Shown here in pieces: positions 45,001 through 62,954 of a stretch of 64,000 nt of DNA. Within the stretch, counting starts at the first letter, position 1, and each line of letters begins with the position of its first letter. Where the stretch lies: assembly GCA_002898715.1 (NCBI GenBank), contig BEIA01000001.1, positions 1,994 through 65,993 of the forward strand. The letters are read 5' to 3'. This DNA comes from a bacterium HR24 (GTDB lineage Bacteria; Chloroflexota; Dehalococcoidia; SM23-28-2; HRBIN24). The notes beneath the pieces are model-generated. The model was not told the DNA's origin, did no database searches, and saw only the letters and a list, made by a program, of their open reading frames with translations. Position numbers and translations under genes: made by a program.

Positions 45001-45185
45001 CCCGTTTCATGTTACACGATTCGACCTCCTACGAAATATGTTACACGTTTGGCTCTGCTGCGGGAGACGCTACATGCAAGACATGACTCTCATCATCGCA
45101 CCATGCTCCCCCTGGTGCCCATTGCCTTCCTCACCAACTGCGCTCGGGAGGCCCCTACCGTTACCGCCCATTACGTCGTGCAGGC

Positions 45186-46606: not shown

Positions 46607-47391
46607 CCTATAACCATGATAGGACGGGTGGATAGGGGCATCCCCGCCGTGTGCCTGCCCTCCCTTCGGGGAGCATCTCATCTCGTCGACCGTGCGCCGT
46701 GGCTGCCGGTGCACCGCCGGGGTGGTGGGGGCAGCCTCAGGGGTGGCGGATACACAGTCGGGTATGCCGGCGCTGCCGTCGGGAGCCTCGCTTCTGGGAG
46801 GGGCCTACCTAAGCGAGGGGCTGCAGCACAAATTGACCCCAAGCCGACCCTGGAGGGGTGGACGAGGGATAGGTGAGAATGTGAGATCATGGTTGGAGCG
46901 GTGATATCCTCGGGCGATGGATGCCTTGGAGTGCCTTAAGGTGACAGTATCCGCCCCTGAAGGTGTTGACAACCCTAGAGGGAGGCGCTAGCGTTAGCGG
47001 TTGCGAAGAGTGGTGTGATAGCCCCCAAGAGGGGGCACCTCGCCTCATGGGCGAGGCTCCGCCACCCCCGGCGGCGGCGTGAAGCCTATCCCCCTACAAG
47101 GGGCTCTGGGCTGAAGTGGCCGGGGAAGCGGACTGGGCCCTGTCGTGATGGGCCTTGGTCCGCACAGGAGGTAGCCTCCAGGAAGCGGGAGGAGGCACCT
47201 CCAGAGTGCCGTCGGCGCTCCGGTTGGGGACCGACGGCTGCGGGCAGTAGGAAAAAGCCCCCTCAGCAGGGGGGCCAACCCCAGGATTGAACGGGTTGGC
47301 GTCCCTGCCGAGGGGGTTATTGTCGTTTGACAGCCCCCTCGTCGGGTAGGGTGGCAGCATCCTGCCCCATCAGGGGGCTGTCGACCCCCAG

Positions 47392-47435
47392 GCCCCAGGA
47401 GGATGGCCCCACCTCCTGGGGCTTTTGTATTTGGG
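47392..47435 (+). terminator. Intrinsic terminator-like hairpin
   Basis: Perfect 10-bp stem CCCCAGGAGG / CCTCCTGGGG with 9-nt loop, followed by CTTTTGTATTTGGGG; a near-identical copy lies at 48832. Confidence 0.5.
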
Positions 47436-47495
47436 GCCCTCCGTCGGAGCTGGCCCGGCCGGCGGTGCAAAACCAAAAGGGCTGGAGGTGAACGT

Positions 47496-48242
47496 ATGCG
47501 ACGGTGGGTGTTGTTCTTCCTCCTGGGGGGCATCCCGGGGCTCCTCCTGGCACTCCTGCTGGGGGCTGCTCCCATGCCTCCCATTTTGCGGCGCCTCCTC
47601 CTGGTGGGGGGCGCCGGCCTGCTGGGGGCCCTCTTCCTGGGGGCCATAGCAGGCAACTTGGGGCTCCGGGCGACGGGGCCCGAGGACCCCACTCCCGCAT
47701 TCGCGGCTGCGGGCGCGGTGGCCGTGGCGGGCGCAGCCGTCACCCTGGCAGTCGTGGCCGCCATGGCCGTCCGGGCTGCCCGCCGGCCCGGACGGCCCGC
47801 TCAGGCCGCCCCGACCACCCCGACCGCCGCGGCCGCCACAGGGAGCGAGGGCACCCAGGGCAGCCCCGCTCCCGCCGTGGCCGTGCACGGCGCCGCCCCG
47901 GAGGAGGCGGCCCGGCTGGAGGCCCTGCTGCGGCCGGTCTCGTCCCTCCTGGGCCGGCCCCTGGTGGTGGTCATCACGCCAGGGAGGCCCCGCGGGTGGC
48001 GGCTGGAGGGGGGCGTCCTCCTCCAGGTCCCCCGCCCCCAGGAGCGGCTCCTGCTAGCCGCCCTGGAGGATGCCCTCCTGGGCAGCGGCAGCCCAGGCGC
48101 CCCTCGACGGGAGCGGCCGTCGCGGCGTGCCCCTGAGGCCGACGTGGCCACAGCATCCCGCCGGCCGCGGCCCGAGGACATCGCCGCCGCTGTGGGAGGC
48201 GCCACACCGGAGGGGAATGGTCCAATGAATGGAGGTGTATAA
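47496..48242 (+). CDS. Membrane protein, paralog A (Ala/Gly-rich TM helices + Pro/Arg-rich C-terminus)
   Basis: MRRWVLFFLLGGIPGLLLALLLGA... ; about 85% identical at the protein level to the product of 59106-59822; start chosen at the ATG preceded by GGAGGTGAACGT. Confidence 0.55.
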   Translation: MRRWVLFFLLGGIPGLLLALLLGAAPMPPILRRLLLVGGAGLLGALFLGAIAGNLGLRATGPEDPTPAFAAAGAVAVAGAAVTLAVVAAMAVRAARRPGRPAQAAPTTPTAAAATGSEGTQGSPAPAVAVHGAAPEEAARLEALLRPVSSLLGRPLVVVITPGRPRGWRLEGGVLLQVPRPQERLLLAALEDALLGSGSPGAPRRERPSRRAPEADVATASRRPRPEDIAAAVGGATPEGNGPMNGGV

Positions 48243-48738: not shown

Positions 48739-48831
48739 CCTAACGACCGGTACTGAGGAGTCTCACCCCCCCAGCGCCCTTCGTGACGGGAGGGCGCCGG
48801 AGAGGGGGTGAGAGATTCATATGTCCCCAAG

Positions 48832-48875
48832 CCCCAGGAGGATGGCCCCACCTCCCGGGGCTTTTGTATTTGGGG
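48832..48875 (+). terminator. Intrinsic terminator-like hairpin (second copy)
   Basis: CCCCAGGAGG-ATGGCCCCA-CCTCCCGGGG followed by CTTTTGTATTTGGGG; ~95 nt after the toxin stop. Confidence 0.45.
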
Positions 48876-50322
48876 CCCCTGTCTGGCGGCGGGGCCGCAG
48901 GCGGCCAGGCGGGGAGTTTGTCGACGGGACTGCGGCAGGTGCCGGCAGGACGCCGTCCCCCAGGAGAGGGTGGGCCTGGGCGAGAAGGCCAGGGCCTATA
49001 GCGCCCCCGCCACCTGCTCCATCCCCATCTCCTGCGGGCGCCCGGGCGGAGTGGGGATGGTGCTGGTCGGGACCGGGCGTCGGGGTGGCCCCGCCCCGTC
49101 CTCTCGGAGAGCGGGAGGGCCGAGAGGAGAAGGACGCGCCTGCACCTCCATGGGAGGGGGCGCGTCCAGGGGGACCCTTCCCCGATGCTCCCCAGGGGAA
49201 GGGTGCTCAGTCCGGGGGAGCACCCGCCGGAGCTGGCCCGGCCGGTGGGGAAAGTTATGGGCCAAAAGGGGGGAAGAAGGGGTGAAGGAGGTGCTGTGTA
49301 GTCAGCGCTCCCCGGGCTGCCTGCCCACCCGGGAGGGGCGCTAGTAACTGAATCCCACCCACCCCTGTGGGTGAGGTGGGGGACGCCCCAGGGTTAGCCC
49401 TCCTGGGGCGATAAAGGCGGAGGGCCCCCAGGAGCCCCAAGGCGGGGGGCGCTCCCCCGCGCGGCGGGTATGGCGTCCGCGGCGGGGCCCCTGGGTTTTC
49501 CCCCCTCGTGTCGGGGCTACCGGCGCACGGAGGGTTGGCCGTCCGGCAGGCGGCCTGGCCCGGGCCGGCTGCGGCGAAGGAGTGTCCACCCCAGGGCGGA
49601 GAGGTCACCCCCTCTCCAGCGCTCTTTCTCAAGGGGAGGGCGCCGGAGAGGGGGTGAGAACTTTTTGAGAACTTTTAAGGCCTGCCTCAGGGATACGGCC
49701 CCGGAAGAGGAAGGGCCGCAGCCGGGGCACGTCCCTGTGGCCCATGTCCGGCCGCGGCCCTACCTCACCAGGAGGTTCGCATGGACAGGCGGACCCATTC
49801 GTGGTCCGTCCCGTGCTCCTGCGACCTTGGCGACGCTTGCCCCGTCGCCAAGGCCATTATAGCACAGAGCACGGCGACGGGCCGCGGGCAGGGCCGCTAA
49901 GCCCCTGCCCGCTCCAACCGAATCCCCCCACCCCGTGGGGCGGTGTTGGCCTGGTAGCCGCACCGGGGGCGATGCTCCAGCCCTGCCGGGGGACGTGGGG
50001 ACTCTCTCCCTACCATCGTGGCCGGATGGTAGGGGTCCGGGAAGGCCCTCCTCCCCGCACCCGCCAGGGAGGGGCCAACTGAATAGGGCTGGAAAACTGA
50101 ATAGCCCCGGCGCTCTCCCCGAGGCACCGGGGCAGGCGGGATAGGGGCAGGGGGTGGGAAGCCGCGGCAGCCGGCACCCACCCCTGTGTGTTGCTGCCCT
50201 CCCCTGTGGAGCGCCCGCCGCCACGGGGGAGTAGAGAGGGCGGGCTTCCCGCCCCTGGCCCCGGGGGCAAAGCCCTCCCCGAATGGGGCACAAATCGAAG
50301 GGGAGGGCAGGAGGAGCATCCC

Positions 50323-51889: not shown

Positions 51890-52159
51890 ATGGTAAGCAT
51901 CACCGACCTCCTCCTACTGGCCAGGCGCCAGCAGGAGGACACCTTCGCTGCGGCCCTGGCGACAAGGCTCGGGCCGCCAGGGGAGGCGTGGGAGGCCGTG
52001 GCCCAGGCGCTGGGGATGCCCTGGGAGCGGTTCCTGTGCCTCCTTACCTGCCGCCTGCCCAGGACGGCAGCGGCGGCCGAGGCCCTGGCCGGGGCCTTCG
52101 GCCTCCCCAAGGAGGCCATCCTGGCCCTGGCCGAGGGGGAGCTGCCGGGAGGGGTGTGA
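51890..52159 (+). CDS. Small hypothetical protein
   Basis: 89 aa; GGGGAGGTGAGGTGAG RBS; TGATG overlap with the primase start. Confidence 0.35.
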   Translation: MVSITDLLLLARRQQEDTFAAALATRLGPPGEAWEAVAQALGMPWERFLCLLTCRLPRTAAAAEALAGAFGLPKEAILALAEGELPGGV

Positions 52160-53220
52160 TGGCCCGACCCGGCAGCGGGTGGAGGGACCTCAAGGAGGAG
52201 GTCCTCCGCCTGTACTCCCCCCTGGACGTGGCCCAGCGCTATGGGCTCGAGCTCCGGCGCATGGGCCGTGTCTGGGCAGCGAGGTGTCCCTTCCATCCGG
52301 ATACACGGCCCTCCTTCTTCGTGTATCCGGATGGCTTCCACTGCTTCGGCTGCGGCTGGCACGGGAACGTGGTGGACTTTGTCGCCGCGGCCGAGCAGGT
52401 GGGGTGGCGGGAGGCCCTCGACCTCCTCGCCGGCGGGCACCTCGGTGCCCCCAAGGCCGTCCGCCCACCGGCCCCGGAGGAGCGGGCGCCGACGGCCGAG
52501 GAGCTGGCCGCGGTGCAGGTCGCCTGGGAGACCTGCCGCCGGCACCTCCGGGACCGCCGGCCCCGCGAGTACCTCACCAGGCGGGGCATCCCCCTGGACG
52601 TGGCCGAGGAGCTCGGCCTCGGCTACTGGGCGCCAGGGGTGGCCACCCGCCTGGAGGCGCTGGGGCTGGTGGAGGCCGCCCTCGCAGTGGGGCTCCTGCG
52701 ACGGCGACGCTCCCCTATGGGGGAGGAGCTGCCGCGCTACTGGGAGCCCTTCCGGGGTCGGGTCATCATACCCGACCTCACGAGGGGCGGCCAGGCCCGG
52801 TGGCTCACCGGCAGAGCCGCCGATGACGTCACCGAGCCCAAATATCTCAACCTCTCCCTCCCCAAGCCCCTGCTGGGGCTGGACACGGTGGAGGGAGAGG
52901 AGGCGGCCCTGGTGGAGGGGCCCCTCGACTGGGTGGCGGCAAGGGCCATGGGCCTTCCCGCCGTCGCCACCCTGGGGGCCCACGTGGGCCGCCTGAAGAT
53001 CACCTCGCTGGCCAGGTTCCGGCGGGTGTTCCTGCTGTTTGACGCCGACGAGGCCGGGCAGCAGGCAGCCAGGGACCTGGCCAAGGCCCTGGGCCGGCGG
53101 GCGGTCATCGTCCCCATCCCCAAGGGGGCCAAGGACGTGGCCGACCTGCTGCTGGCCCAAGGCGGAAAGGGCCGCCTCCTCAGGGCCATGGAGGCGGCCA
53201 GAGAGAAAAAGGGAGGATGA
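52159..53220 (+). CDS. DNA primase (DnaG-type: CHC2 zinc finger + Toprim)
   Basis: Zinc finger CPFHPDTRPSFFVYPDGFHCFGCGWHG; Toprim motifs VIIPD...EGPLDWV...FLLFDADEAGQQAA. Confidence 0.75.
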   Translation: MARPGSGWRDLKEEVLRLYSPLDVAQRYGLELRRMGRVWAARCPFHPDTRPSFFVYPDGFHCFGCGWHGNVVDFVAAAEQVGWREALDLLAGGHLGAPKAVRPPAPEERAPTAEELAAVQVAWETCRRHLRDRRPREYLTRRGIPLDVAEELGLGYWAPGVATRLEALGLVEAALAVGLLRRRRSPMGEELPRYWEPFRGRVIIPDLTRGGQARWLTGRAADDVTEPKYLNLSLPKPLLGLDTVEGEEAALVEGPLDWVAARAMGLPAVATLGAHVGRLKITSLARFRRVFLLFDADEAGQQAARDLAKALGRRAVIVPIPKGAKDVADLLLAQGGKGRLLRAMEAAREKKGG

Positions 53221-53765: not shown

Positions 53766-53901
53766 GCCCGGAGGCCGCAGCAGTCCTCCCCCTGACCCCA
53801 ACCCCAACCCCAACCGAGATACCACCATCCTCGCCCCTAGTCCCGGGGGCATAAGCCTGTCCGAACGGGGCACGAATCGAAGGGCAGGCGGAGGTGAACA
53901 T

Positions 53902-55155
53902 ATGCGCGATGTCATCTTCACCGCCACCCCCTGTGGGGTGGCGGTCCTCCCCACCACCGACACTGCCCCCGCCGGCGCCCGGCGCCTTCTGGCGGGGCGC
54001 GCCTACCTTCTCCCCTCCCGGGAAGGCCTCCCGGCGGAGGGTGAGAGAGAGGTCCTCGACCTCGCCTCCCGCCTCGCCCGCCTGCGGGACGAGGTGGCGG
54101 TGAGGTTCGTGGCCAGGGACGAGCTCGCCCTGGCCACCGCCTGCGCTCTTTCGTCGGGAGAGCACCTCTTCGTCCTCTCCCCTCCCGGGGCGGCGAAGAG
54201 CGCGTTCCTCCGCGCCTTCGCCGAGGGCATTGGGGGCCGCTTCTTCCGGGTGGTCCTCAATCCCGATATCCCCCGGGAGGCCATCTTCGGCGCCATCGAC
54301 CCCTCGGCCCTCGCCGAGGGCAAGTGGCGCCGGCGGTGGGACGGGCTGGCCCGGGCCCACCTGGCGCTCCTGGACGAGGTGTTCAAGGCCTCGCCACAGG
54401 TCTTGAACACCCTCCTGGACGCCCTTGAGGAGAGGCGGGCCGGCCAGGGGGAGGACGAGGTCGTCCTCCCCCTCATCTCCGCCATGGGTGCCTCCAACGA
54501 GGCGCCCGAAGAGCCGGAGCTGAGGGCGGTCTATGACCGCTTCCTCGTCCGGCTCTCGGTGGGGTACGTCCAGGACCCCACCGCTTTCAAGGGGCTGCTC
54601 GTGGCCGATGCCGGCAGCAGCCCCATCACCCCTGTCATGACAGCAGAGGAGCTCATGCTCCTTGCTGCCGCCGTGGAGGCCATGAGCCTCCAGCCGCCCG
54701 CCGAGGTGGTGGAGGCCATGGCCACCATCTGGTCGGAGATGCGCGACCGCGCCGTCTCCGACCGCCGGTGGCGGCGCTCCCTCAAGGTCGCCACCGGCCA
54801 TGCCCTCCTGCGGGGTGCCCAGGCGCCGGAGGTCTATGACCTCGCTGCCCTGCGGTGGACCCTCTGGGTCGACCCGCAGGAGGAGAAGGAGGTCCGGGAC
54901 CTGGTCCTGGGCCTCACCGACCCCCTGGCGGGGAAGGTGCTGGACCTGGAGGCCCTCCTCGCCGATGCCGCCCGCCGTATGGCGGGCCTCGGCCAGATGA
55001 AGGCCGAGGAGAAGGCCCGCCTCCTGCGGGAGCTGCGGGAAATTCGCAGCGAGGCGGAGGGGGTCCTGCCCCAGGCGGGGCGCCATGCCCCGCGCGTCTC
55101 GGCCGTCGCCGAGGAGGCCCAGGCGATGGTCGAGAAGATCATCTCCAGCTTCTAG
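53902..55155 (+). CDS. MoxR-like AAA+ ATPase (AAA_5/AAA_3)
   Basis: Walker A HLFVLSPPGAAKSAFLRAF, Walker B ALLDEVFKASPQVLNTLLDALEER, sensor region; conserved leader GGGGCACGAATCGAAGGGCAGGCGGAGGTGAACAT directly upstream. Confidence 0.75.
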   Translation: MRDVIFTATPCGVAVLPTTDTAPAGARRLLAGRAYLLPSREGLPAEGEREVLDLASRLARLRDEVAVRFVARDELALATACALSSGEHLFVLSPPGAAKSAFLRAFAEGIGGRFFRVVLNPDIPREAIFGAIDPSALAEGKWRRRWDGLARAHLALLDEVFKASPQVLNTLLDALEERRAGQGEDEVVLPLISAMGASNEAPEEPELRAVYDRFLVRLSVGYVQDPTAFKGLLVADAGSSPITPVMTAEELMLLAAAVEAMSLQPPAEVVEAMATIWSEMRDRAVSDRRWRRSLKVATGHALLRGAQAPEVYDLAALRWTLWVDPQEEKEVRDLVLGLTDPLAGKVLDLEALLADAARRMAGLGQMKAEEKARLLRELREIRSEAEGVLPQAGRHAPRVSAVAEEAQAMVEKIISSF

Positions 55156-55167
55156 GGGGAGGGGGCC

Positions 55168-55902
55168 ATGCAGAACCTTCTCCGCCACACCTGCCCCTCC
55201 TGCCAGGGGCGATTCTGGCTGGAGCGGCTCCCGCAGGGGACCATCCTGTGTCCCTACTGCGGGGCGACTGTCTCCGGCTCCGGCCGCCTCGGGCGGAGGA
55301 GCAGCGCGGTCCCGGCGTGCACGGTCCGCAACGGGACCGCCGTCCCCGGCATCCGCACCGAGGATGGCCTCATCATCCTCGGTGAGGAGGGCCGGGGCAG
55401 GCGACTCACCCGGGTGCCCCTGCCGTCGGGGGCATCCCTAGACCGGGAGGGGACCGTGCAGGCCCTCCCGGTGTCCCACCCCGCCGCGGTGGCAGTGATC
55501 CTCATCCGGGACCACTCCGGCTACCGCGGCGGGTGGGAGCTCCTCACCCTCCCAAGGGAGGACTGCCCCCTGCGGGGCAAGCTGGAGCTCCTGTGGGAGG
55601 AGACCTGCCCCGTCTGCGAGTGGTGGGGCAGGCATGGGCCCTACCCCGTCCGCCAGCTCCGGGCGCAGGACCTCGGCCACCTCATCGCCGAGGGCTACTG
55701 TGCCCAGGGAGCTGCCGGGCGAATGGGCGGCGGGCCCGAGTACCTCATCGCCGCTCCCCCGGGGGAGTTCTGCATTTACCGCTGGGGGCGGCTCTACGGC
55801 GCACCCCGCTTCGTGGGGGTGCGCATCTACCCCGACGGCCGGGTGGAGACGTGGGACGTCATGGAAGCCCTCTCCTCCACCCGTGCCGCCGAGTCCTGGT
55901 AA
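55168..55902 (+). CDS. Zinc-ribbon protein (candidate vWA-MoxR-associated middle component)
   Basis: N-terminal CPSCQGRF...CPYCG zinc ribbon, further CPVCEW; sits between the MoxR and VWA genes. Confidence 0.45.
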   Translation: MQNLLRHTCPSCQGRFWLERLPQGTILCPYCGATVSGSGRLGRRSSAVPACTVRNGTAVPGIRTEDGLIILGEEGRGRRLTRVPLPSGASLDREGTVQALPVSHPAAVAVILIRDHSGYRGGWELLTLPREDCPLRGKLELLWEETCPVCEWWGRHGPYPVRQLRAQDLGHLIAEGYCAQGAAGRMGGGPEYLIAAPPGEFCIYRWGRLYGAPRFVGVRIYPDGRVETWDVMEALSSTRAAESW

Positions 55903-55918
55903 GGAGGGGGGTGAGGCC

Positions 55919-57493
55919 ATGAACGGCCCCATCCCCTACCTCCCTCCCGCCGCCGAGCGGGTCCTGGAGCAGGCCCGCAGGCTCTTCCTCCTGCGGGACC
56001 TGCGCTCGGTGGCGGCGGGGGCCGACCGCCTCTCCTTCCGCCAATGGGCGGAGGGGGTGCGCGGCTACCCCCAGGCCGCCGAGGCCAACGAGGACCTCGG
56101 CGGCATCCTCGGCGGGGAGCCGGTGAGGGACGCCTTCTTCCTCGTCACCTCGCCGGCGCCGCAGCTGGTGCCGCAGCCCCCACAGGGCACCGAGCTGCTG
56201 CACCGCATCCTGGGGGAGGCCATCACCACCCCGGGCTTCGGTCGCCTGCGGGAGACGGCGGGCGATGACCCGGTGGTGGCTGCGTACGGCGCCTCCCACT
56301 GGGCGCGGGAGCTCGTCTCGCAGCTCCCGGAGTCCATCAAGGAGGCCGCCCGCGAGGCAGCCGCTGCCCAGGGGGAGGTGCAGGAGGCCCGGGAAGCCCT
56401 GCAGCAGCTCGCTGCCCTCAAGGCCTCCCTCGAGGAGCAGGGCCGGGAGGTGCCCGGCGAGCTGGTGGAGCAGCTCGCCCAGGCCGAGGCAGCCGTCCAG
56501 GCAGCCACCGCTAGGGCCCAGGCGGCCTCCTCGACCACCCTCGCCCTCCTGGAGGAGAGGGCAGCAGAGGTGCGGGCCGCCGCCTCCCGAGCCGCCGAGG
56601 CGGCCTCCACCCAGGGCCGCCAGTTCGAGGCCTCGGTGAGGGGCTTCGACCTGGCGGCAGGGGGCGAGGGGGCCGTCTCGCCCGAGGCGGCGAGGGCCTG
56701 GATGGAGGTCCTCGCCCGCCATCCCCGCCTGGAGGCCCTGGCTCGCGAGCTGGGCTGGGCCCGCCGCCTGGTGGGCTCCCTCTGGCGCCAGTCGCCACAC
56801 GCCCGCACGGAGCTGGTGGGCTACCGCTCCGGCTACCTGCGGGCCGAGGAGCTGGCGCCCTGGGAACTGGCCCTCATGGTGGGGCCGGCGCCTGCCCGGC
56901 TCGACTTCCTGCGCCGGGCTGCCGAGGGTGACATCCGCCACCGGCAGCTGCAGGGCAGGGAGAAGATGGGACGGGGGCCGCTGGTGGTGGTCAGGGACGA
57001 GTCGGGCTCCATGCAAGGGGGTCCGCATGCCCTGGCCGTCGCCATCGAGTGGGCCCTCCTGGAGGTCTGCCGCCGGGAGGGCAGGCCCCTCGTCTCCATC
57101 TGTTTCTCCGGGCCGGGGCAGGTCCGGGCCTGGAGGGCGCCCACAGGCGGGCGGCCCGACCACGAAGGGCTGCTCCGCCACCTCTCCCACTTCTACGGGG
57201 GAGGGACGGAGCCCTACCAGGCCCTCTCCCTCGCCCTCCGGGAGGTGGAGGGGAGCGCCGAGATGAGGCGGGCCGACATCCTCCTCATCTCGGACGCCAT
57301 CTTCCCACCTCCGCCGGAGGAGGTGCGACGGCTGCTGGAGGCCGCCCGCCGGCGCCGCCCCCTGCACCTGGCCGCCGTCCTGGTGGGAACGGTGCCGGGA
57401 CCCCTGGAGGGGCTGGCACACCCCATCGTCAGGGTGTCAGACCTCCTCCAGGAGAGGGAGCGGCTGCGGGAGGCCCTCTCCGCCGTCCTGTAA
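55919..57493 (+). CDS. VWA-domain protein (MoxR partner)
   Basis: C-terminal VWA/MIDAS-like block LVVVRDESGSMQGG ... ILLISDAIF; long coiled-coil/Ala-rich N-terminal half. Confidence 0.65.
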   Translation: MNGPIPYLPPAAERVLEQARRLFLLRDLRSVAAGADRLSFRQWAEGVRGYPQAAEANEDLGGILGGEPVRDAFFLVTSPAPQLVPQPPQGTELLHRILGEAITTPGFGRLRETAGDDPVVAAYGASHWARELVSQLPESIKEAAREAAAAQGEVQEAREALQQLAALKASLEEQGREVPGELVEQLAQAEAAVQAATARAQAASSTTLALLEERAAEVRAAASRAAEAASTQGRQFEASVRGFDLAAGGEGAVSPEAARAWMEVLARHPRLEALARELGWARRLVGSLWRQSPHARTELVGYRSGYLRAEELAPWELALMVGPAPARLDFLRRAAEGDIRHRQLQGREKMGRGPLVVVRDESGSMQGGPHALAVAIEWALLEVCRREGRPLVSICFSGPGQVRAWRAPTGGRPDHEGLLRHLSHFYGGGTEPYQALSLALREVEGSAEMRRADILLISDAIFPPPPEEVRRLLEAARRRRPLHLAAVLVGTVPGPLEGLAHPIVRVSDLLQERERLREALSAVL

Positions 57494-57614
57494 CCGCCAC
57501 CCCTGATCCCTGTGCGTCCATGACGCCGCGAGGCGCACAGAAGGGGACAGGGGTCCCCACCGGCGTCGGCCCGGCCGGCGGGGTGAAGCTATGGGCCAGG
57601 AGGTGATATGTGAT

Positions 57615-59072
57615 ATGATACTGAACCTCCTACCCCCGCTTCACCGCCCTGCCTACATGGTGGGCGGGGCGGTGCGAGACATGCTCCTGGGGAGACCCCT
57701 CCACGACATCGATATCGTCGTGGAGGGGGACCCCCATGAGGCCGCCCGCGAGATCGGTGCTGCCCTCGCGGGCGCCCTGGTCCCCCTCAAGGGCCTGGTG
57801 CGGGTGGTGGCCACCCATGTGCAGGTGGACATCACCCGCCTTTCGGGGCCTATCGCCGAGGACCTGGCCCGCCGCGACTTCACCATCAACGCCATGGCCC
57901 TCCCGCTGGGATCCGGGAGGGAGAAGGGCCTGCCCCCGGTCCTGGACCCCACGGGTGGCAGGGACGATCTCCGCCGGGGCGTCGTGCGACTCGTCTCGCC
58001 CGATGCCCTGGCAGCCGACCCGGTGCGGCTCCTGCGGGGGCCCAGGCTCGCCCTCGAGCTGGGCTTCCGCGTAGAAGGGCACACCGCCCGGGCCATCAGG
58101 GCGCATGCCCAGCTCCTCGGCAGGGCAGCCCCTGAGCGGCTGGCGGAGGAGCTGCGCCGGCTGCTCCACCTGCCGGACGGCGGGCGGGGGATGGGCCTCC
58201 TCCACCACCTTGGCCTCCTCGTACAGCTCTTCCCCGAGCTGCAGGAGGCCGAGGGGGTGGCCCAGCCCTACCCCCACCGGCAGGACGTCCTCGCCCACCT
58301 GCTGGACGCTGCCAGGTGGGCCGACGTCATCCTCGGCCGCTCGGCGACGGCCGAGGAGGAGCGCGTCCGCCGGGCCACCGGCCACCTCATGACCCCACAG
58401 GTGCACGAGCGCCTGGGGGAGGAGGTGGCCCACGGCTGGCAGCAGGCGGCCCTCCTGCGGTTGGGGGCACTCCTGCACGATATAGGCAAGCCCCGCAGCC
58501 GTAGGAGAACCCAGGACGGCCGTGTCCACTTCTATGGACACGACCGCCTGGGCGCCGAGATGGCAGCAGCCATGGCGGCGCGCCTCCGGCTCCCCGCCAG
58601 GGCCGGCACCTTTCTCATGGCCCTGGTGAGGGAGCACATGCGGCCGGTGGGGCTCGCCGCCGCCCCCGGCCTGCCCTCCCGCCGTGCCCTCTACCGCCTC
58701 CACCGCGACGCCGGCGGCACCGCCACCGCCCTGGCCCTCCTGTTCGTGGCCGACACCCTGGCCACGAGCGGGCCCGGGGACCGGGAGCGGCTGGGGCGGG
58801 CGCTAGAGGTGGCCCGCCACCTCGTGCTCTACGGCCACGAGCAGGACGCGGTGCCCAGGCTCCTGTCCGGCCACGACGTCATGACCGCCCTGGGCATCGG
58901 GCCTGGGCCCCTCGTGGGCCGGGTGCTGCGGGCCGTGCAGGAGGCGGCAGCCGCGGGGGAGGTATGCAGCAAGGAGGAGGCGCTGGAGCTGGCCAGGCGC
59001 ATAGCCCAAGCTCCCGCGCCCTCCCAAGAGCCCATCCCTGCCCCTGGCCCCGGGGGTGAAGCCTGCCCGTAA
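57615..59072 (+). CDS. CCA-adding tRNA nucleotidyltransferase / poly(A) polymerase-family enzyme with HD domain
   Basis: Pol-beta NTase head GGAVRDMLLGRPLHDIDIVVEG, RRDFTINAMAL, HD motif ALLHDIGKP...HFYGHD; start at MILNLL with AGGAGGTG RBS (ORF extends to 57591). Confidence 0.75.
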   Translation: MILNLLPPLHRPAYMVGGAVRDMLLGRPLHDIDIVVEGDPHEAAREIGAALAGALVPLKGLVRVVATHVQVDITRLSGPIAEDLARRDFTINAMALPLGSGREKGLPPVLDPTGGRDDLRRGVVRLVSPDALAADPVRLLRGPRLALELGFRVEGHTARAIRAHAQLLGRAAPERLAEELRRLLHLPDGGRGMGLLHHLGLLVQLFPELQEAEGVAQPYPHRQDVLAHLLDAARWADVILGRSATAEEERVRRATGHLMTPQVHERLGEEVAHGWQQAALLRLGALLHDIGKPRSRRRTQDGRVHFYGHDRLGAEMAAAMAARLRLPARAGTFLMALVREHMRPVGLAAAPGLPSRRALYRLHRDAGGTATALALLFVADTLATSGPGDRERLGRALEVARHLVLYGHEQDAVPRLLSGHDVMTALGIGPGPLVGRVLRAVQEAAAAGEVCSKEEALELARRIAQAPAPSQEPIPAPGPGGEACP

Positions 59073-59105
59073 GGGGCACAAATCGAAGGGCAGGCGGAGG
59101 TGAAC

Positions 59106-59822
59106 ATGCGTAGGTGGGTCTTCTTCTTCCTGCTGGGGGGCATCCCGGGGCTCCTCCTGGCACTCCTGCTGGGAGCTGTCCCGGCGCCCCCCACCCTGCG
59201 GCGCCTCCTCCTGGTGGGGGGCGCCGGCCTGCTGGGCTCCCTCTTCCTGGGGGCCATAGCAGGCAACCTGGGGCTCAGGGCCACGGGGCCCGAGGACCCC
59301 ACGGCGGCCTTCGCCGCCGCCGGCGCGGTGGCCGTGGCCGGCGCAGTCGTCACCCTGGCAGTCATCACCGCCATGGCCGTCAGGGCTGCCCGCCGGCCCG
59401 GGCAGCCTGAGCAGGCCACCCCGGCTGCCCCGGTCGCCAGGGGGAGCGAGGGCGCCCAGGGCGGCCCTGCTCCTGTGGTGGCCGTGCACGGTGCCGCCCC
59501 GGAGCAGGGGGCCCGGCTGGAGGCCCTGCTCCGGCCGGTCTCGTCCCTCCTGGGCCAGCCCCTGGTGGTGGTCATCACCCCAGGGAGACCCCGGGGGTGG
59601 CACCTGGAGAAGGGCATCCTCCTCCAGGTGCCACGTCCCCAGGAGCGGCTCGTGCTTGCCGCCCTGGAGGACGCCCTCCTAGGCGGGGGCAGTGAGCGCC
59701 CTCGCCGCGAGAGGTCGCCTCGCCAGCTCCCCGAGGGAGGCGGGCCGACTGTGTCGCGCCGCCCTCGGCCCGAGGACATCGCCGCGGCCGTGGGTGGCGC
59801 CACGACGGAGGGGGAGGCATAG
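59106..59822 (+). CDS. Membrane protein, paralog B
   Basis: MRRWVFFFLLGGIPGLLLALLLGAVPAPPTLRRLLLVGGAGLLG...; near-identical to the product of 47496-48242; leader GGGGCACAAATCGAAGGGCAGGCGGAGGTGAAC upstream. Confidence 0.55.
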   Translation: MRRWVFFFLLGGIPGLLLALLLGAVPAPPTLRRLLLVGGAGLLGSLFLGAIAGNLGLRATGPEDPTAAFAAAGAVAVAGAVVTLAVITAMAVRAARRPGQPEQATPAAPVARGSEGAQGGPAPVVAVHGAAPEQGARLEALLRPVSSLLGQPLVVVITPGRPRGWHLEKGILLQVPRPQERLVLAALEDALLGGGSERPRRERSPRQLPEGGGPTVSRRPRPEDIAAAVGGATTEGEA

Positions 59823-59826
59823 CAGC

Positions 59827-61065
59827 ATGCACCCACCCCACTACCCCTCCGGCCAGGACCTGGAGCGGCTGGCCGAGAGGGCCATCGTCTTCCTCAACCG
59901 GTGGACGACCCTCGTCCCCTGCTTCTGGGGACCGTCCTCGGAGGGGAAGACCTACTTCGTGCGGGCCATGGCCGCACGCCTGGGCGCCTGCTTCCTGCAC
60001 GTCATCCTCAAGAACATGAAGCCCGATGACGTGCTGGGCGCCCAGGTCCTCACCCCATCAGGTGAGCTCAGGGTCGAGCTCTCCTGGTGGGTCAAGGAGG
60101 CCATGGGCGCCGCCCAAGGGGGGCGTAAGGTCGTCGTCTTCCTGGACGAGCTGGACAAGGCCGACGACGACCTCATCGCCCCCATCCTCACCTTCCTCCG
60201 GGACCGCACCGTCTACGGCGTGGCCCTGGAGGACGAGGAGGCCATCAGGGAAGGGAAGGAGGAGCGGCGCATCTACCTCGTCGCCGCCTGTAACCCGGGC
60301 GCTTTCGACGAGGCGATGCGCTGCCGGCTCGCCTTCATCTGGTGGCCCACCGACGCTGCCGGCTACTACAGCGTGGCCGGCAGCTCGCCCCTGGCGAGGG
60401 CAGCCGTCGAGAAGGCCGCCCCGCTGCTCGCCGAACGGCGCCGGCAGGCCGAGCGGCAGCCACCCCCGATGCCGGAGTTCACCAAGGCCACGGTAGACGC
60501 CCTCCGGCGGGGGGAGCAAGAGCTGCTACGCATGGCCCGCGACGAGCGCTGCTTCATCCTCTCCCTCCTCATGCCGCCCTCCCTCGCCGAGGCGGTGGAG
60601 GAGGAGATGGCCCACCGGCAGGAGCAGCCGCCGCTGGACCTGCTGGTGGAGCAACCCCAGGAGCTGGCGAGGCTCCTTGCCCGCCTGGAGCTGCCCGAGT
60701 TCGTGGCCACCGCCGCCTCGGCCCTCGGGCATGCCCTGAAGGTGGGCAAGAGGGAGGCACTCCCGGCCATCACCGCCGCCATCTACCGCGGCGCCCTCGC
60801 CCCCGTCGCCGCGGGCGGCAAGGATGCCGGCGCGCGGCGCGAGGCGCTGGAGCGTCTATCGGCCTGGATGGCCGAGCGGCCCGACAAGGAGCCGCTGGGG
60901 GAGCTGGTGGCCGACGCCCTCTCCCGGCTCGGAGGCGAGGCCTTCTTTGAAGCCCTCGCCAGGGACGGGCTGCTCCGCCTCCAGGAGGACGGCAGCCTCG
61001 GCGGCGAGCTGGTGGAGCTCCTGCAGGCCCTGCAGGAGCCCGTCCAGGGGGCGCTCATCCCATGA
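59827..61065 (+). CDS. MoxR/CobS-like AAA+ ATPase (AAA_5)
   Basis: Walker A GPSSEGKTYFVRAMAARLG, Walker B VVVFLDELDKADDDLIAPILTFL; followed by a VWA/metallopeptidase partner. Confidence 0.7.
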   Translation: MHPPHYPSGQDLERLAERAIVFLNRWTTLVPCFWGPSSEGKTYFVRAMAARLGACFLHVILKNMKPDDVLGAQVLTPSGELRVELSWWVKEAMGAAQGGRKVVVFLDELDKADDDLIAPILTFLRDRTVYGVALEDEEAIREGKEERRIYLVAACNPGAFDEAMRCRLAFIWWPTDAAGYYSVAGSSPLARAAVEKAAPLLAERRRQAERQPPPMPEFTKATVDALRRGEQELLRMARDERCFILSLLMPPSLAEAVEEEMAHRQEQPPLDLLVEQPQELARLLARLELPEFVATAASALGHALKVGKREALPAITAAIYRGALAPVAAGGKDAGARREALERLSAWMAERPDKEPLGELVADALSRLGGEAFFEALARDGLLRLQEDGSLGGELVELLQALQEPVQGALIP

Positions 61066-62393
61066 GCCACCCCCTCCTGGGCAAGGTCTTGGCTGCCCTG
61101 CCGCCGGCCCTGGCGGGCCTCTTCGAGACGGGCCTCCTCGCCATCGAGATACGCGACGGCCCCGAGGCCCGCCGGCCCTACGCCATGACCGTCTACCGGC
61201 GGGGCAGCTACACGTTCGCCATCGTCCTCGACGCCCACGCGGTGGCAGTGGCGTCGAGGACGGCCCTGCAGGCCATCGTCCGGCACGAGGTGGGCCACAT
61301 CGTCCTGGGCCACTTCGGGCCGGAGCACGAGGCCTGCCACCTCCCCTGCAACACCCTCGCCGAGGAGGCGGAGGTCAACGGCTTCCTCTCCCGGGAGGAG
61401 CGGGAGGCGGTGGCCGACGCCTGCACGGTCCTCGCCCTCAGGAGCCTCGCGAGGCGCCTCGGGCCGGCCATCGCCATGCTCCTTGCGGGCGCCGGCTTCA
61501 GGGCGAAGGTCGTGGACCCGGACGAGGTGCGGGCCATGGCCGGCCTCTCGCCTGACCTGCCGCCCCGTTGGAGGTGGCTCCATCCCCTCCTGCACCCTAT
61601 GCCGTCCGATCGGGAGCTGCCGGGTCTGGACGCCCACGGGGCGGGCGGCCCAGGCGCAGGGGTCGGGGCAGGAGAAGGGGACCACCTGGGCGAGGGCTAC
61701 CCCTGCGGAGGCGTCCAGGTGGAGGAGGGCGCCACGGAGGAGGCCGCCGGCGTGGCGGCAGCCCTTGCCGCCTCGCCCAGGGCGCAGGCAGCGCTGGAGG
61801 GACAGGGCCTGCGCGGATGGGGCAGCGGGGCGGGCAGCGCGACCATGGAGTGGCGCCCTCCCCTCCTGCCGCGCTGGGCACAGGAGGTGCTGGAGTGGGC
61901 ACGCAAGCTCGCCCACCGCACCTGGGCCCTCCGCCGCATCCGCCACCGGCCCCGCATCGACTTCCTGCGAGCCACCGGCCTCTACCGCCCCGACCGGGGC
62001 TACGACCGGGTGCGGGCCGGAGGGGAGGTGGTCTTCGTGGTGGACGCCTCGAGATCCATGGTCCAGGACGTCCACTATGCCCACCCGGCCATAAGCTTCC
62101 TCCTCCACCAGGGCATCACCGTCAGGTTCATCTGCGGCGATGTGCAGGTGGAGGTGGACACGCTCTTGCGGCCGGGAGATGAGATCCCCGCCCCCAAGGG
62201 GTGCGGGGGCACCGATATCTGCCCGCTCATGGAGCGGGCAGCCTCCTACCGGCCACACGGGATATGCGTCTACACCGATGCCGCCATCCCGCGCTGGCCA
62301 CCCCAGCCCGAGGGGGCAGAGGTCCTCTGGGTCGTCCCGGAGGGCATCACGCCCCCTTACGGGCAGGCCGTCCACTGGCGGCCGGAGAGCTAG
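61062..62393 (+). CDS. Putative metallopeptidase (HExxH, DUF2201-like) fused to a VWA-like domain (MoxR partner)
   Basis: HEVGHIVLGH zincin-like motif in the N-terminal half; C-terminal VWA-like block VVFVVDASRSM ... GGTDICPLM; ATGA overlap with the upstream ATPase. Confidence 0.6.
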   Translation: MSHPLLGKVLAALPPALAGLFETGLLAIEIRDGPEARRPYAMTVYRRGSYTFAIVLDAHAVAVASRTALQAIVRHEVGHIVLGHFGPEHEACHLPCNTLAEEAEVNGFLSREEREAVADACTVLALRSLARRLGPAIAMLLAGAGFRAKVVDPDEVRAMAGLSPDLPPRWRWLHPLLHPMPSDRELPGLDAHGAGGPGAGVGAGEGDHLGEGYPCGGVQVEEGATEEAAGVAAALAASPRAQAALEGQGLRGWGSGAGSATMEWRPPLLPRWAQEVLEWARKLAHRTWALRRIRHRPRIDFLRATGLYRPDRGYDRVRAGGEVVFVVDASRSMVQDVHYAHPAISFLLHQGITVRFICGDVQVEVDTLLRPGDEIPAPKGCGGTDICPLMERAASYRPHGICVYTDAAIPRWPPQPEGAEVLWVVPEGITPPYGQAVHWRPES

Positions 62394-62414: not shown

Positions 62415-62954
62415 ATGAGGTCAGAACTCCCCCTCCCCCAACAGGTGTGGGAGGCCCTCTATGGCCTCGCGGCCGAGGCCCGGCGGCAGGTGGAGAAGGA
62501 CGGGGGGATGAACCCCATCGTCGTGGCCATCGGCCGCGAGCAGGCCATCGTGATGGAGGCCAGTCACTGGGACGAGGCCTCCAAGCACGAGACCATGCGC
62601 ACCGCCGGGGCCATAGCGGCCCGCATCTCGCCCATGGCCGTGGCCCTGGTAGCCGACATTTACTACCTCGCCCTCACCCCCTCGGAGGGGGCGGCCGACT
62701 TCCCTCCCTCCCTCGCCGACGACCCGCGGTCGGTGGAGGCGGTGTGCCTGGCCGTGGTCGACCGGCGGGGGAACAGCTTCGTGCGCCTCTGGCCCTACCG
62801 GCGAGAGGTGCACGGGCTGGATGTGAGGACCGTCTGGCTGGACGAGGGAGAGGTCGGCCACCCGCCCCAGGACGCAGGGAGCATCGTCTCCCCCGTCGTG
62901 GCCAGCTTCTGGCAGGGGGTGGACGAGGCAACGCCCCCGCCTCATCAGGGATGA
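62415..62954 (+). CDS. Hypothetical protein
   Basis: 179 aa; GGAGGTGAGAGG RBS; no motifs. Confidence 0.35.
   Translation: MRSELPLPQQVWEALYGLAAEARRQVEKDGGMNPIVVAIGREQAIVMEASHWDEASKHETMRTAGAIAARISPMAVALVADIYYLALTPSEGAADFPPSLADDPRSVEAVCLAVVDRRGNSFVRLWPYRREVHGLDVRTVWLDEGEVGHPPQDAGSIVSPVVASFWQGVDEATPPPHQG

What the first reader, a model, noticed from the sequence alone, without database searches (positions are those of the whole stretch)
53902..59072. MoxR AAA+ / zinc-ribbon / VWA triad followed by a CCA-adding enzyme: candidate NTP-dependent conflict or tRNA-repair module
The three consecutive genes (MoxR-like ATPase, Zn-ribbon protein, VWA protein) match the ternary vWA-MoxR-VMAP layout proposed for NTP-dependent biological-conflict systems. 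They are followed directly by a full-length CCA-adding nucleotidyltransferase with an HD domain. A mobile-element-borne CCA enzyme suggests repair of host tRNA 3' ends damaged by defence nucleases, or a role for tRNA in signalling. The triad is preceded by a conserved leader shared with other element genes.
Basis: inference. Interest (0 to 1): 0.75.

Follow-up and report, generated by a model that had tools for sequence, protein, structure and literature searches.

The report
Conjugative-element MoxR–VWA operon with tRNA enzyme
A four-gene operon on an integrated conjugative element of a hot-spring bacterium pairs a RavA/ViaA-like ATPase with its VWA partner, a pairing conserved across such elements, and adds a chimeric zinc-ribbon protein and a spare tRNA-end-building enzyme of the CC-adding type; it lacks the architecture of the proposed 'ternary conflict systems'.

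Summary
The four genes are real and sit at the stated coordinates, behind a 67-nt leader that occurs three times in the window. They lie in an integrative conjugative element (ICE) of 'bacterium HR24'.

**Core pair.** The conserved core is only the MoxR ATPase plus the VWA protein. MoxR is RavA-like with intact ATPase motifs. The VWA protein is ViaA-like, with a helical N-terminal region, a C-terminal VWA fold and an invariant MIDAS. All 20 related loci with visible upstream DNA keep the pair. In distant relatives the two genes abut with nothing between them, in plasmid/ICE DNA-processing regions.

**Middle gene.** It is a chimera. A short zinc ribbon matches the position of a small FmdB-type ribbon gene in sister ICEs. 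It is fused to an all-beta domain with no known fold, which otherwise occurs alone in phage early regions without MoxR or VWA. No VMAP, effector or beta-propeller domain is present, so the ternary conflict-system reading fails.

**Nucleotidyltransferase.** It is catalytically intact but resembles the Aquifex CC-adding enzyme (short loop, HD domain). It is a second copy, 44% identical to the host's chromosomal cca. It is sub-clade cargo: frameshifted in the sister element and reduced to a remnant in another.

Function is inferred, not shown.

The parts
53835..53901 (+). 67-nt leader copy 2. It has two predicted hairpins followed by the Shine-Dalgarno sequence GGAGGTGA and ends at the MoxR start codon.
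   Evidence: Repeat family D3. The same leader lies upstream of the orthologous three genes in the sister element. Hairpin 2 is 100% paired with 2 compensatory pairs in 6 sequences. Fold z-scores are only -0.6 to -1.7. No Rfam match.
53902..55155 (+). MoxR-class AAA+ ATPase of the RavA subfamily, 417 aa. Walker A is SPPGAAKS, Walker B is LLDEV, sensor-1 is ASNE. It has no LARA domain.
   Evidence: Pfam bpMoxR 7e-38, AAA_5 and AAA_lid_8. NCBIfam RavA 8e-35, below the equivalog cut-off. PDB RavA 2.4e-32 over residues 54-333. PHROG 19600 ATPase 9e-44. dN/dS 0.13 against the sister element.
55168..55902 (+). Chimeric 244-aa protein. Residues 1-40 form an N-terminal CxxC..CxxC zinc ribbon. Residues about 45-244 form an all-beta domain of unknown function with the motifs GEEGRGR, IRDHSGYRGGW, AQGxAGRMGGGPEYL and GRLYG.
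55919..57493 (+). ViaA-like VWA protein, 524 aa. About 340 residues of helical and coiled-coil N-terminal region are followed by a C-terminal VWA domain with a complete MIDAS (D359, S361, S363, T429, D458).
57494..57556 (+). Hairpin-forming insert between the VWA stop codon and the nucleotidyltransferase start, with 13-nt arms at 57499-57511 and 57542-57554. It has no T-run.
   Evidence: Inverted repeat I1. It is a 54-nt insertion relative to the sister element. No terminator-like site was found.
57591..59072 (+). Class II tRNA nucleotidyltransferase with an HD domain, of the CC-adding (Aquifex AaS-like) short-loop type. The start codon is 57591 or 57615. The last 11 or so codons and the stop codon lie inside leader copy 3.
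   Evidence: Domains. PDB 3WFO-3WFS 5e-52 over the full length, against 1e-22 on head and neck only for CCA-adding 1MIV. Short loop. Motifs GGAVRD, DIDI, RRDFTINA, ADPVR and HDIGK are present. The host has a separate chromosomal cca, 44% identical. dN/dS 0.28-0.40 against intact orthologues.
59041..59107 (+). Leader copy 3. It starts the next operon: a membrane protein at 59106-59822, an AAA_5 ATPase at 59827-61065, a metallopeptidase/VWA-like DUF2201 protein at 61062-62393, and an ORF at 62415-62954.
50253..50319 (+). Leader copy 1. It is a variant with compensatory changes in stem 2 and lies ahead of a coiled-coil protein and primase operon.
   Evidence: DnaG-like primase at 51988-53220.

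Best explanation
The locus is one transcription unit (leader, MoxR, Zn-ribbon chimera, VWA, nucleotidyltransferase) in the DNA-processing half of an integrative conjugative element.

**Core pair (function inferred).** The functional core is a RavA/ViaA-like chaperone and co-chaperone pair. It is an old backbone module of a family of conjugative elements and plasmids. By analogy with RavA-ViaA, NorQ-NorD, midasin and the ATV p618/p892 pair, the VWA protein would hold a client through its MIDAS site and long helical N-terminal region. The hexameric MoxR ATPase would then use ATP to remodel or release that client. The constant neighbours are primase, SSB, UvrD-type helicase, DnaN, RadC, DUF6744 and DUF6094/helicase. 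This makes an element-encoded or recruited DNA replication, transfer or establishment complex the most likely client.

**Accretions (shown).** The space between and behind the two genes is a slot where different elements carry different genes. In this lineage a small Zn-ribbon gene became fused to a phage-derived beta domain.

**Nucleotidyltransferase.** A diverged second copy of a CC-adding-type tRNA nucleotidyltransferase with an HD phosphoesterase domain was inserted just upstream of the next operon's leader. It most likely works independently of the pair, rebuilding or topping up C74-C75 on tRNA 3' ends in the host or recipient (inferred).
For: **ICE context.** tRNA-Arg, a tyrosine integrase, a relaxase, VirD4-like and VirB4-like ATPases, TrbL, SLT/M23 and Tad-like ATPases lie in the same window.

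**Pair conservation.** A MoxR homologue lies directly upstream of the VWA homologue in every one of 20 distinct related loci with visible upstream DNA. The genes overlap or abut in distant relatives, including a complete Alicyclobacillus plasmid.

**Functional integrity.**
- dN/dS is 0.13 for MoxR and 0.16 for VWA, against 0.51 for the Zn-ribbon protein and 0.36-0.50 for the nucleotidyltransferase.
- MoxR is RavA-like and VWA is ViaA-like.
- ATPase motifs are intact and the MIDAS is invariant.

**Variable slots.**
- Between MoxR and VWA: nothing, a small FmdB ribbon, a coiled-coil gene plus ribbon, or the chimera.
- Between VWA and the AAA_5/DUF2201 pair: sigma-70 plus SSB, two unknown genes plus SSB, or the nucleotidyltransferase plus a membrane protein.

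**Nucleotidyltransferase.**
- AaS-like over its full length, with the short loop.
- A chromosomal cca lies in a core-gene neighbourhood.
- It is intact in three elements with dN/dS 0.28-0.40.
- It is frameshifted in the sister element and reduced to a 117-aa remnant in L128.
- Its ORF runs into leader copy 3.

**Literature.**
- MoxR-VWA genes are conserved in the pCAR1, R478 and Rts1 plasmids and the SXT and R391 ICEs (PMC2642839).
- MoxR-vWA pairs act as chaperones in ATV and jumbo phages, and CCA-adding enzymes act as RNA-repair genes in jumbo phages (PMC7824862).
Against: - No client is identified and nothing here shows ATPase activity or a MoxR-VWA interaction.
- The 'DNA-processing client' rests on gene neighbourhood only.
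- MoxR's best Pfam model is the one built from beta-propeller ternary conflict systems.
- The Zn-ribbon gene is conserved next to VWA across the nearer ICE relatives, so a three-protein complex in this clade cannot be excluded.
- The nucleotidyltransferase directly follows VWA in elements as far apart as 76% VWA identity. That could reflect functional coupling rather than mere insertion.
- CC-only specificity is inferred from loop length and similarity. Loop length alone is not fully diagnostic (PMC3925840).
Confidence: 0.55

Rival explanations
1. The MoxR, Zn-ribbon and VWA genes form an NTP-dependent ternary conflict (defence) system of the vWA-MoxR-VMAP kind. The middle protein acts as the VMAP-like sensor or effector scaffold.
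For: - Three consecutive genes in the right order.
- The top Pfam hit of MoxR is bpMoxR, PF20030.
- The locus is on a mobile element, with variable gene content between the core genes.
- 62% of the vWA proteins of the propeller systems have a long N-terminal helical region (PMC7159879).
Against: - There are no VMAP-C, iSTAND, FtsH, TPR or beta-propeller domains, no effector domain on either protein, and the VWA domain ends the protein.
- PADLOC gives no hit.
- Distant relatives have the pair with no third gene.
- The beta domain occurs in phage early regions without MoxR or VWA.
- The variable genes in the slots are housekeeping-like (SSB, sigma factor, coiled coil), not toxins.
Confidence: 0.05
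2. The four genes form one tRNA-centred module. The MoxR-VWA pair, with the Zn-ribbon protein, loads, regulates or protects the CC-adding enzyme or damaged tRNAs. The operon as a whole would then repair tRNA 3' ends attacked by host or competitor nucleases.
For: - The genes share one leader-to-leader unit.
- The order VWA then nucleotidyltransferase is kept in the window, the sister element and L147, down to 76% VWA identity.
- Phage 0305phi8-36 has a deletable island that holds MoxR, vWA and two tRNA genes (PMC3357382).
- Jumbo phages carry CCA-adding enzymes as RNA-repair genes (PMC7824862).
Against: - The pair is far older and far more widespread than the enzyme.
- The enzyme is missing from the five intermediate and all distant relatives.
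- It is frameshifted in the sister element while MoxR and VWA stay under strong constraint.
- In L128 the enzyme's remnant lies upstream of MoxR, so the linkage is not positional.
Confidence: 0.1
3. The MoxR-VWA pair is a counter-defence or establishment device. It would be expressed early in the recipient cell and would disassemble a host protein complex, such as a restriction or other defence complex, rather than assemble the element's own machinery.
For: - In distant relatives the pair lies among typical entry and establishment genes: RadC, SSB, DnaN, ParB, DUF6094 with a helicase, an AcrIIA9-family protein, PcfJ and an antirepressor.
- SSB lies in the same block in intermediate relatives.
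Against: - The evidence is purely contextual.
- The origin of transfer and the order of gene entry are unknown here.
- Known MoxR-VWA pairs assemble or mature complexes rather than destroy them (PMC7159879; PMC9976466 abstract).
Confidence: 0.2
4. The nucleotidyltransferase, and perhaps the beta domain, is a neutral hitch-hiker in the course of decay, with no role for the element.
For: - A frameshift in the sister element appears in contigs from several samples.
- L128 carries an internally deleted remnant.
- The gene is absent from other relatives.
- dN/dS is higher than for the core genes.
- L147's beta domain has lost 2 of 13 invariant and 10 of 22 near-invariant residues.
Against: - The window copy is intact with all catalytic motifs.
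- Intact orthologues at 95% and 71% identity give dN/dS of 0.28 and 0.40, similar to neighbouring backbone genes.
- The window and sister beta domains keep all 35 family-conserved residues.
Confidence: 0.1

Closest known systems
RavA-ViaA of E. coli (MoxR AAA+ ATPase with its VWA partner)
   Same: - It is the best solved-structure and NCBIfam match for both proteins: RavA 2.4e-32 and 8e-35, ViaA 1.9e-12.
- The genes are adjacent and co-oriented.
- Walker A is of the PPGxAKS type.
- The VWA domain sits at the C-terminus of a roughly 500-aa protein, behind a non-VWA N-terminal region.
   Different: - Scores are far below the equivalog cut-offs (121 against 681 bits; 47 against 500 bits).
- The LARA domain is missing.
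- The pair is encoded on an ICE next to primase rather than on a chromosome.
- A gene is inserted between the two.
MoxR-like ATPase and VWA protein of conjugative-element backbones: pCAR1 ORF101/ORF103, conserved in R478, Rts1, SXT and R391 (PMC2642839)
   Same: A MoxR-class ATPase and a VWA protein, separated by another ORF, are conserved as backbone genes of conjugative plasmids and ICEs. Their function is unknown.
   Different: - The pCAR1 ATPase is described as CbbQ-like, whereas this one is RavA-like.
- Direct homology to those genes was not tested here.
- The hosts are proteobacterial.
vWA-MoxR ternary conflict systems: VMAP, iSTAND, FtsH and beta-propeller types (Kaur, Burroughs, Iyer, Aravind 2020)
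   Same: - They also have a MoxR plus vWA core with a third gene.
- The Pfam bpMoxR model, built from the propeller type, is the top hit for MoxR.
   Different: - There is no VMAP-C, iSTAND, FtsH or propeller component.
- There are no effector or EAD domains.
- The VWA domain is C-terminal with nothing after it.
- The pair stands alone in distant relatives.
NorQ-NorD, midasin MIDAS, and the ATV p618/p892 chaperone pair
   Same: - The ATV pair shows a mobile-element MoxR-VWA pair acting in the assembly of the element's own structure (cited).
   Different: - There is no link to metal-cofactor insertion genes or to virion genes here.
- The N-terminal 340 residues of the VWA protein have no structural match.
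[quoted passage not shown] 2014)
   Same: - Full-length alignment, residues 10-477 against 27-508, E 5e-52, including the HD-containing body and tail.
- A short loop between motifs A and B, the proposed hallmark of CC-adding enzymes (PMC3925840).
- Motif D is xDPVR, without the glutamate.
   Different: - The loop is even shorter than in AaS.
- The gene is a second copy on a mobile element, 44% identical to the host's chromosomal enzyme.
- Specificity is untested.
- Assigning those PDB codes to AaS rests on my memory; the PDB label reads 'Poly A polymerase'.
Phage-encoded tRNA nucleotidyltransferases (PHROG 2244; jumbo-phage CCA-adding enzymes)
   Same: PHROG 2244 matches at 6e-42. These enzymes are described as restoring CCA, or parts of it, as an RNA-repair function of mobile elements (PMC7824862).
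   Different: - This one is on an ICE, not a phage.
- It is of the HD-containing, short-loop type.
- No RNA ligase, kinase/phosphatase or tRNA genes accompany it.

Membership tests
VMAP ternary conflict system (Kaur et al. 2020) | Adjacent MoxR AAA+ and vWA genes | tested here: met
VMAP ternary conflict system (Kaur et al. 2020) | A third protein carrying the VMAP-C domain, usually with N-terminal enzymatic or EAD domains | tested here: not met
   The Pfam scan of 55168-55902 gives only weak Zn-ribbon hits. The predicted fold matches nothing known. Definition from PMC7159879.
VMAP ternary conflict system (Kaur et al. 2020) | [quoted passage not shown] | tested here: not met
   The VWA domain spans residues 354-523 and is the C-terminal end of the protein in all 23 homologues.
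Beta-propeller MoxR-vWA ternary system (source of Pfam bpMoxR) | The MoxR protein matches PF20030 | tested here: met
   E 7e-38, covering model positions 2-178 of 205.
Beta-propeller MoxR-vWA ternary system (source of Pfam bpMoxR) | [quoted passage not shown] | tested here: not met
   There is no sequence after the VWA domain, and no TPR or propeller hits in the operon. Definition.
RavA-ViaA type MoxR/VWA chaperone pair | A RavA-like AAA+ module with Walker A, Walker B, sensor-1 and sensor-2 | tested here: met
   The alignment to RavA over residues 54-333 shows PPGAAKS/PPGIAKS, LLDEVFKA/FLDEIWKA, ASNE and SDRRW.
RavA-ViaA type MoxR/VWA chaperone pair | A partner with a C-terminal VWA domain and a complete MIDAS | tested here: met
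   [not shown]
RavA-ViaA type MoxR/VWA chaperone pair | Orthology to RavA and ViaA (NCBIfam equivalog cut-offs; the LARA domain) | tested here: not met
   Scores are 120.8 bits against a cut-off of 681, and 47.2 against 500. The alignment stops at residue 333 and the protein has only 417 aa.
RavA-ViaA type MoxR/VWA chaperone pair | ATP-dependent remodelling of a client, and a physical MoxR-VWA interaction | not testable with these tools
   This needs biochemistry.
Class II CC-adding tRNA nucleotidyltransferase | Catalytic motif A (GGxVRD...DxD), motif B (RRD) and motif D (DxxR) | tested here: met
   GGAVRD, DIDI, RRDFTINA and ADPVR are present.
Class II CC-adding tRNA nucleotidyltransferase | A short loop between motifs A and B (Neuenfeldt 2008, as summarised in PMC3925840) | tested here: met
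   The loop is about 15 residues shorter than in Bacteroidota homologues and shorter than in AaS. Hallmark described.
Class II CC-adding tRNA nucleotidyltransferase | Adds C74-C75 only and needs a separate A-adding enzyme | not testable with these tools
   This needs an in-vitro assay. The rest of the HR24 genome was not available to search for an A-adding enzyme.
Canonical bacterial CCA-adding enzyme | NCBIfam equivalog score, and the long flexible loop required for adding A76 | tested here: not met
   The best equivalog scores 157 bits against a cut-off of 439. The loop is short. Similarity to 1MIV and 3H37 covers head and neck only.
FmdB-type zinc ribbon (Pfam Zn_ribbon_8) | An N-terminal CxxC...CxxC ribbon homologous to the small ribbon proteins found upstream of VWA in sister ICEs | tested here: inconclusive
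   The small proteins hit Zn_ribbon_8 at 7e-6 and 5e-5, below the cut-off. hhalign against the window protein gives E 0.0019 over 29 columns with probability 14%. The position immediately upstream of VWA is the same.

The most novel reading that the evidence does not exclude
The all-beta domain of the middle protein may define a new, structurally unprecedented family of early-region proteins in phages and mobile elements. It has at least 763 clusters at 50% identity, invariant Arg/Gly-rich motifs, and no Pfam, PHROG, PDB or BFVD match. In this ICE lineage it would have been captured, through fusion to the resident Zn-ribbon adaptor, as a client or specificity subunit of the MoxR-VWA machine. 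The gap between MoxR and VWA would then be a plug-in slot that retargets a conjugative-element chaperone, and the CC-adding enzyme would be part of the same establishment toolkit.
Probability: 0.15. Interest if true: 0.6.

Novelty: new variant of a known kind. Interest (0 to 1): 0.3.

Why it matters
MoxR-VWA pairs have been noted in the backbones of conjugative plasmids and ICEs since at least 2009, but no function has been assigned to them.

This locus and its relatives contribute three things:
- The pair is strictly co-inherited, strongly constrained and embedded in DNA-processing or establishment genes across very different elements. That gives a concrete hypothesis to test by deletion and pull-down.
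- The work separates such chaperone-type pairs from the predicted 'ternary conflict systems', which share a Pfam model with them. This distinction is useful for annotation.
- It adds two small items: an ICE-borne second copy of a CC-adding-type tRNA nucleotidyltransferase, and a sizeable phage/MGE protein family with no known fold.

None of these overturns current views.

Tried and rejected
- **Nucleotide similarity.** Megablast of the locus against plasmids gave no match.
- **Exact-protein lookup** of the Zn-ribbon protein returned only roughly 1-kb Logan contigs.
- **tblastn of window proteins against phage-type loci** found no MoxR or VWA, but it also missed a known AAA_5 gene in L007. It was too insensitive, so I replaced it with a Pfam scan of 85 neighbours.
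- **Defence annotation.** PADLOC gave nothing meaningful.
- **Other searches for the beta domain.** PHROGs and tblastn against phage genomes gave nothing.
- **PDB profile search for the VWA protein** gave no hit by sequence.
- **Rfam on the leaders** gave only chance-level hits. The promoter and terminator scan found 0 sites.
- **Leader as a stable structured RNA.** Fold z-scores are weak and only six related copies exist. I therefore did not build a covariance model.
- **ICE end.** I looked for a repeat of the tRNA-Arg 3' end and found none in the window, so the element's limits are undetermined.
- **Genome-contig scan.** It did not return the HR24 contig, so I could not read beyond the window or search the genome for an A-adding enzyme.
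- **Literature searches** for MoxR with ICE, for DUF6744/DUF6094, and for CCA-adding enzymes as anti-defence were empty or irrelevant.
- **Structure string error.** My first structure string for the leader was off by one column. It is corrected.

Full report
**1. What is there**

The window has about 72% G+C. ORFs with coding-type third-position GC (0.89-0.91) occupy 53902-55155, 55168-55902, 55634/55919-57493 and 57591-59072, all on the + strand.

- MoxR-class AAA+: bpMoxR 7e-38, AAA_5, AAA_lid_8.
- A protein whose only hits are weak zinc-ribbon matches on residues 4-40.
- A VWA protein.
- A PolyA_pol-head / RNA-binding / HD nucleotidyltransferase.

Alignment with homologues puts the VWA start at the ATG at 55919, behind a GGAGG. 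The gaps between the first three genes are 12 and 16 nt. About 100 nt containing a hairpin (57499-57555) precede the fourth gene. This hairpin is a 54-nt insertion relative to the sister element, and no terminator-like site was found.

**2. Context**

One protein is identical to HRbin24_00059 of 'bacterium HR24', an unclassified bacterium. The window carries the following genes:
- tRNA-Arg(CCT) and a tyrosine integrase.
- An IS110 transposase and a type IIG-like restriction-modification fusion.
- CpaE-, CpaF- and TadB-like proteins.
- A Replic_Relax relaxase and VirD4-like and VirB4/TraG-like ATPases.
- TrbL and SLT/M23 hydrolases.

It is therefore an integrative conjugative element. The finding lies in its DNA-processing half, just after a DnaG-like primase. 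It is followed by a second ATPase/VWA-like pair: an AAA_5 protein plus a DUF2201 protein carrying an HExxH motif.

**3. The leader**

A 67-nt element occurs three times, each copy ending at a start codon. Its 18-nt core matches 3 times against 0.21 expected by chance. The same three positions carry it in the 94%-related sister element.

It folds into two hairpins followed by the Shine-Dalgarno sequence. In six sequences hairpin 2 is 100% paired, with two compensatory pairs. However, the folding z-scores are weak, no Rfam family matches, and the element is absent upstream of MoxR in more distant relatives.

The nucleotidyltransferase ORF ends inside copy 3. This is what one expects if the gene was inserted in front of a pre-existing leader.

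**4. The conserved unit is the MoxR-VWA pair**

The VWA protein has 22 full-length homologues. Reading their contigs and 23 metagenome loci shows a MoxR homologue directly upstream in every one of 20 distinct loci where upstream DNA is visible.

In relatives at 35-55% identity the two genes abut or overlap with no third gene. They sit in a recurrent block on mobile-element-like contigs and on a complete Alicyclobacillus plasmid. That block includes:
- RadC, DUF6744, then MoxR and VWA.
- DUF6908 and DUF6094 with a helicase.
- Nearby DnaN, ParB, UvrD plus primase, an AcrIIA9-family protein and PcfJ.

Several lines indicate a functional pair:
- Against the sister element, dN/dS is 0.13 (MoxR) and 0.16 (VWA). 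The Zn-ribbon protein gives 0.51 and the nucleotidyltransferase 0.36-0.50.
- MoxR aligns to E. coli RavA (2.4e-32) with Walker A, Walker B and the sensor motifs intact, but it lacks the LARA domain.
- The VWA protein weakly matches ViaA and has an invariant MIDAS.

The literature already records MoxR-like and VWA genes as conserved backbone genes of pCAR1, R478, Rts1, SXT and R391, with unknown function (PMC2642839). It also records MoxR-vWA chaperone pairs in ATV and jumbo phages (PMC7824862).

**5. The middle gene is a chimera in a variable slot**

The gene content between MoxR and VWA varies with relatedness:
- In five relatives at 64-75% identity, the gene immediately upstream of VWA is a 94-98-aa FmdB-type zinc-ribbon protein (Zn_ribbon_8, 7e-6). 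It is sometimes preceded by a coiled-coil gene.
- In the window, the sister element and L147 (76%), that position holds a larger protein.

The window protein's N-terminal ribbon aligns weakly with the small ribbons (hhalign E 0.0019). The rest is an all-beta domain with strongly conserved motifs.

That beta domain has these properties:
- It is confidently modelled (pLDDT 90).
- It matches no solved or viral predicted fold.
- It has no Pfam or PHROG family.
- It forms a family of 763 clusters at 50% identity, mostly stand-alone proteins of 150-250 aa.

In 25 phage-type loci, its large neighbours are SNF2/ResIII helicases, ParB/KorB, PD-(D/E)xK nucleases, terminases, PolA and FtsK. AAA_5 and VWA are not among the 25 commonest families. 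One locus does have an AAA_5 plus DUF2201_N pair 0.5 kb away.

The window and sister copies keep all 35 family-conserved residues. L147 has lost 12 of them.

The sister element also has a coiled-coil gene plus a duplicated MoxR 3' end inserted after MoxR. This confirms that the junction is an insertion hot-spot.

**6. It is not a ternary conflict system**

Kaur et al. define four MoxR-vWA ternary systems. [quoted passage not shown] None of these features is present, and PADLOC is silent.

The bpMoxR hit reflects the AAA+ subfamily, not system membership.

**7. The nucleotidyltransferase**

Its best solved relatives are PDB 3WFO-3WFS, at 5e-52 over residues 10-477 including the HD-containing body. 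From memory these are the Aquifex aeolicus CC-adding enzyme of Yamashita et al. 2014. True CCA-adding enzymes match only the head and neck, at 1e-22.

Other features:
- The loop between motifs A and B is short, as in Chloroflexota and Desulfobacterota homologues and in the host's own enzyme. Bacteroidota homologues have about 15 more residues. A short loop is the proposed hallmark of CC-adding enzymes, although it is not fully diagnostic (PMC3925840).
- The catalytic motifs are intact.
- HR24 has a separate cca, 44% identical, sitting between def and yajC-secDF near priA, trmD and rplS. The ICE gene is therefore a diverged second copy.
- No genome in the GTDB set has a relative above 40% identity.

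Distribution among related elements:
- Intact orthologues exist in two other elements, at 95% and 71% identity, with dN/dS of 0.28 and 0.40.
- The sister element has a +1 G frameshift, seen in contigs from several samples.
- L128 retains only a 117-aa remnant, located upstream of MoxR.
- The other relatives carry sigma-70 plus SSB, or unknown genes plus SSB, in that slot.

The enzyme is thus functional cargo of a sub-clade, not a component of the pair. Phage tRNA nucleotidyltransferases are a known kind (PHROG 2244; PMC7824862).

**8. Verdict**

The interpretation as a conflict system is not supported. The tRNA-repair idea remains a reasonable but untested role for an accessory gene.

The most likely reading is a RavA/ViaA-like chaperone pair that belongs to the conjugative-element backbone, with lineage-specific insertions. 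This is a new variant of a known but functionally uncharacterised kind, and of modest interest.

Noticed in passing
window 59827-62393: There is a second ATPase/VWA-like pair. An AAA_5 ATPase (Walker A GPSSEGKT) is followed by a DUF2201 VWA-like protein with an N-terminal HEVGH metallopeptidase motif. The pair is conserved in all nearer ICE relatives. It resembles the MoxR plus metallopeptidase-vWA pair described in jumbo phages (PMC7824862).
   Followed up: partly
window 47403-48242 and 59106-59822: Two paralogous genes are 75-88% identical at the nucleotide level (repeat families D1, D2 and D4). They encode Gly/Leu-rich proteins that look membrane-bound and have no Pfam or PHROG match. One copy sits directly behind leader copy 3.
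   Followed up: no
window 47386-47439 and 48825-48878: Two 54-nt hairpin-plus-T-run elements are 96% identical (CCCCAGGAGG...CCTCCTGGGGCTTTTGTATTT). They look like intrinsic terminators and flank the 47403-48242 gene.
   Followed up: no
window 45183-45279 and 45354-45450: Two 97-nt direct repeats, 75% identical and 171 nt apart, lie in a lower-GC (about 0.61) and apparently non-coding stretch between the T4SS genes and the DNA-processing genes. They could be iterons, an origin of transfer or a small RNA.
   Followed up: no
L036 7684-9245 (sister element): A 355-aa coiled-coil gene and a 101-aa ORF are inserted between MoxR and the Zn-ribbon gene. The last 31 residues of the 101-aa ORF are 100% identical to the MoxR C-terminus. 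This is a recombination scar marking the junction as an insertion hot-spot.
   Followed up: partly
L128 3983-4336: A 117-aa ORF joins the GGAVRD motif of the nucleotidyltransferase head directly to its C-terminal tail domain. It is an internally deleted remnant and lies upstream of MoxR rather than downstream of VWA.
   Followed up: partly
L131 11685-13618 and L132 11585-13231: Related ICEs carry a full-length sigma-70-family factor plus SSB in the slot that holds the nucleotidyltransferase here. This suggests that these elements can bring their own transcription specificity.
   Followed up: no
L151 (Alicyclobacillus sp. ALC3 plasmid NZ_CP066785.1, 113413-127997): The conserved block runs dnaN, DUF6744, AAA ATPase, VWA, several further genes, DUF6094, DEAD/DEAH helicase, an AcrIIA9-family protein and PcfJ. 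The same synteny appears in three unrelated metagenome contigs. It resembles an establishment or anti-defence region.
   Followed up: partly
window 57591-57620: The start of the nucleotidyltransferase is ambiguous. One ATG at 57591 lies behind GGGGTGA, and another at 57615 lies behind GGAGGTGA. Between them an out-of-frame ATG-TGA mini-ORF was created by a 5-nt indel relative to the sister element.
   Followed up: partly
protein P0169: A 3251-aa protein matches the beta-domain profile in 28 separate stretches, at profile positions 22-75. The N-terminal sub-domain may therefore also exist as a tandem repeat in a giant protein.
   Followed up: no
window 5709-5784 and 7937-10296: A tRNA-Arg(CCT) gene without an encoded CCA is followed about 2-3 kb later by an IS110 transposase and a tyrosine integrase. 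No repeat of the tRNA 3' end occurs elsewhere in the window, so the ICE's far end lies beyond 64 kb or it uses another attachment site.
   Followed up: partly
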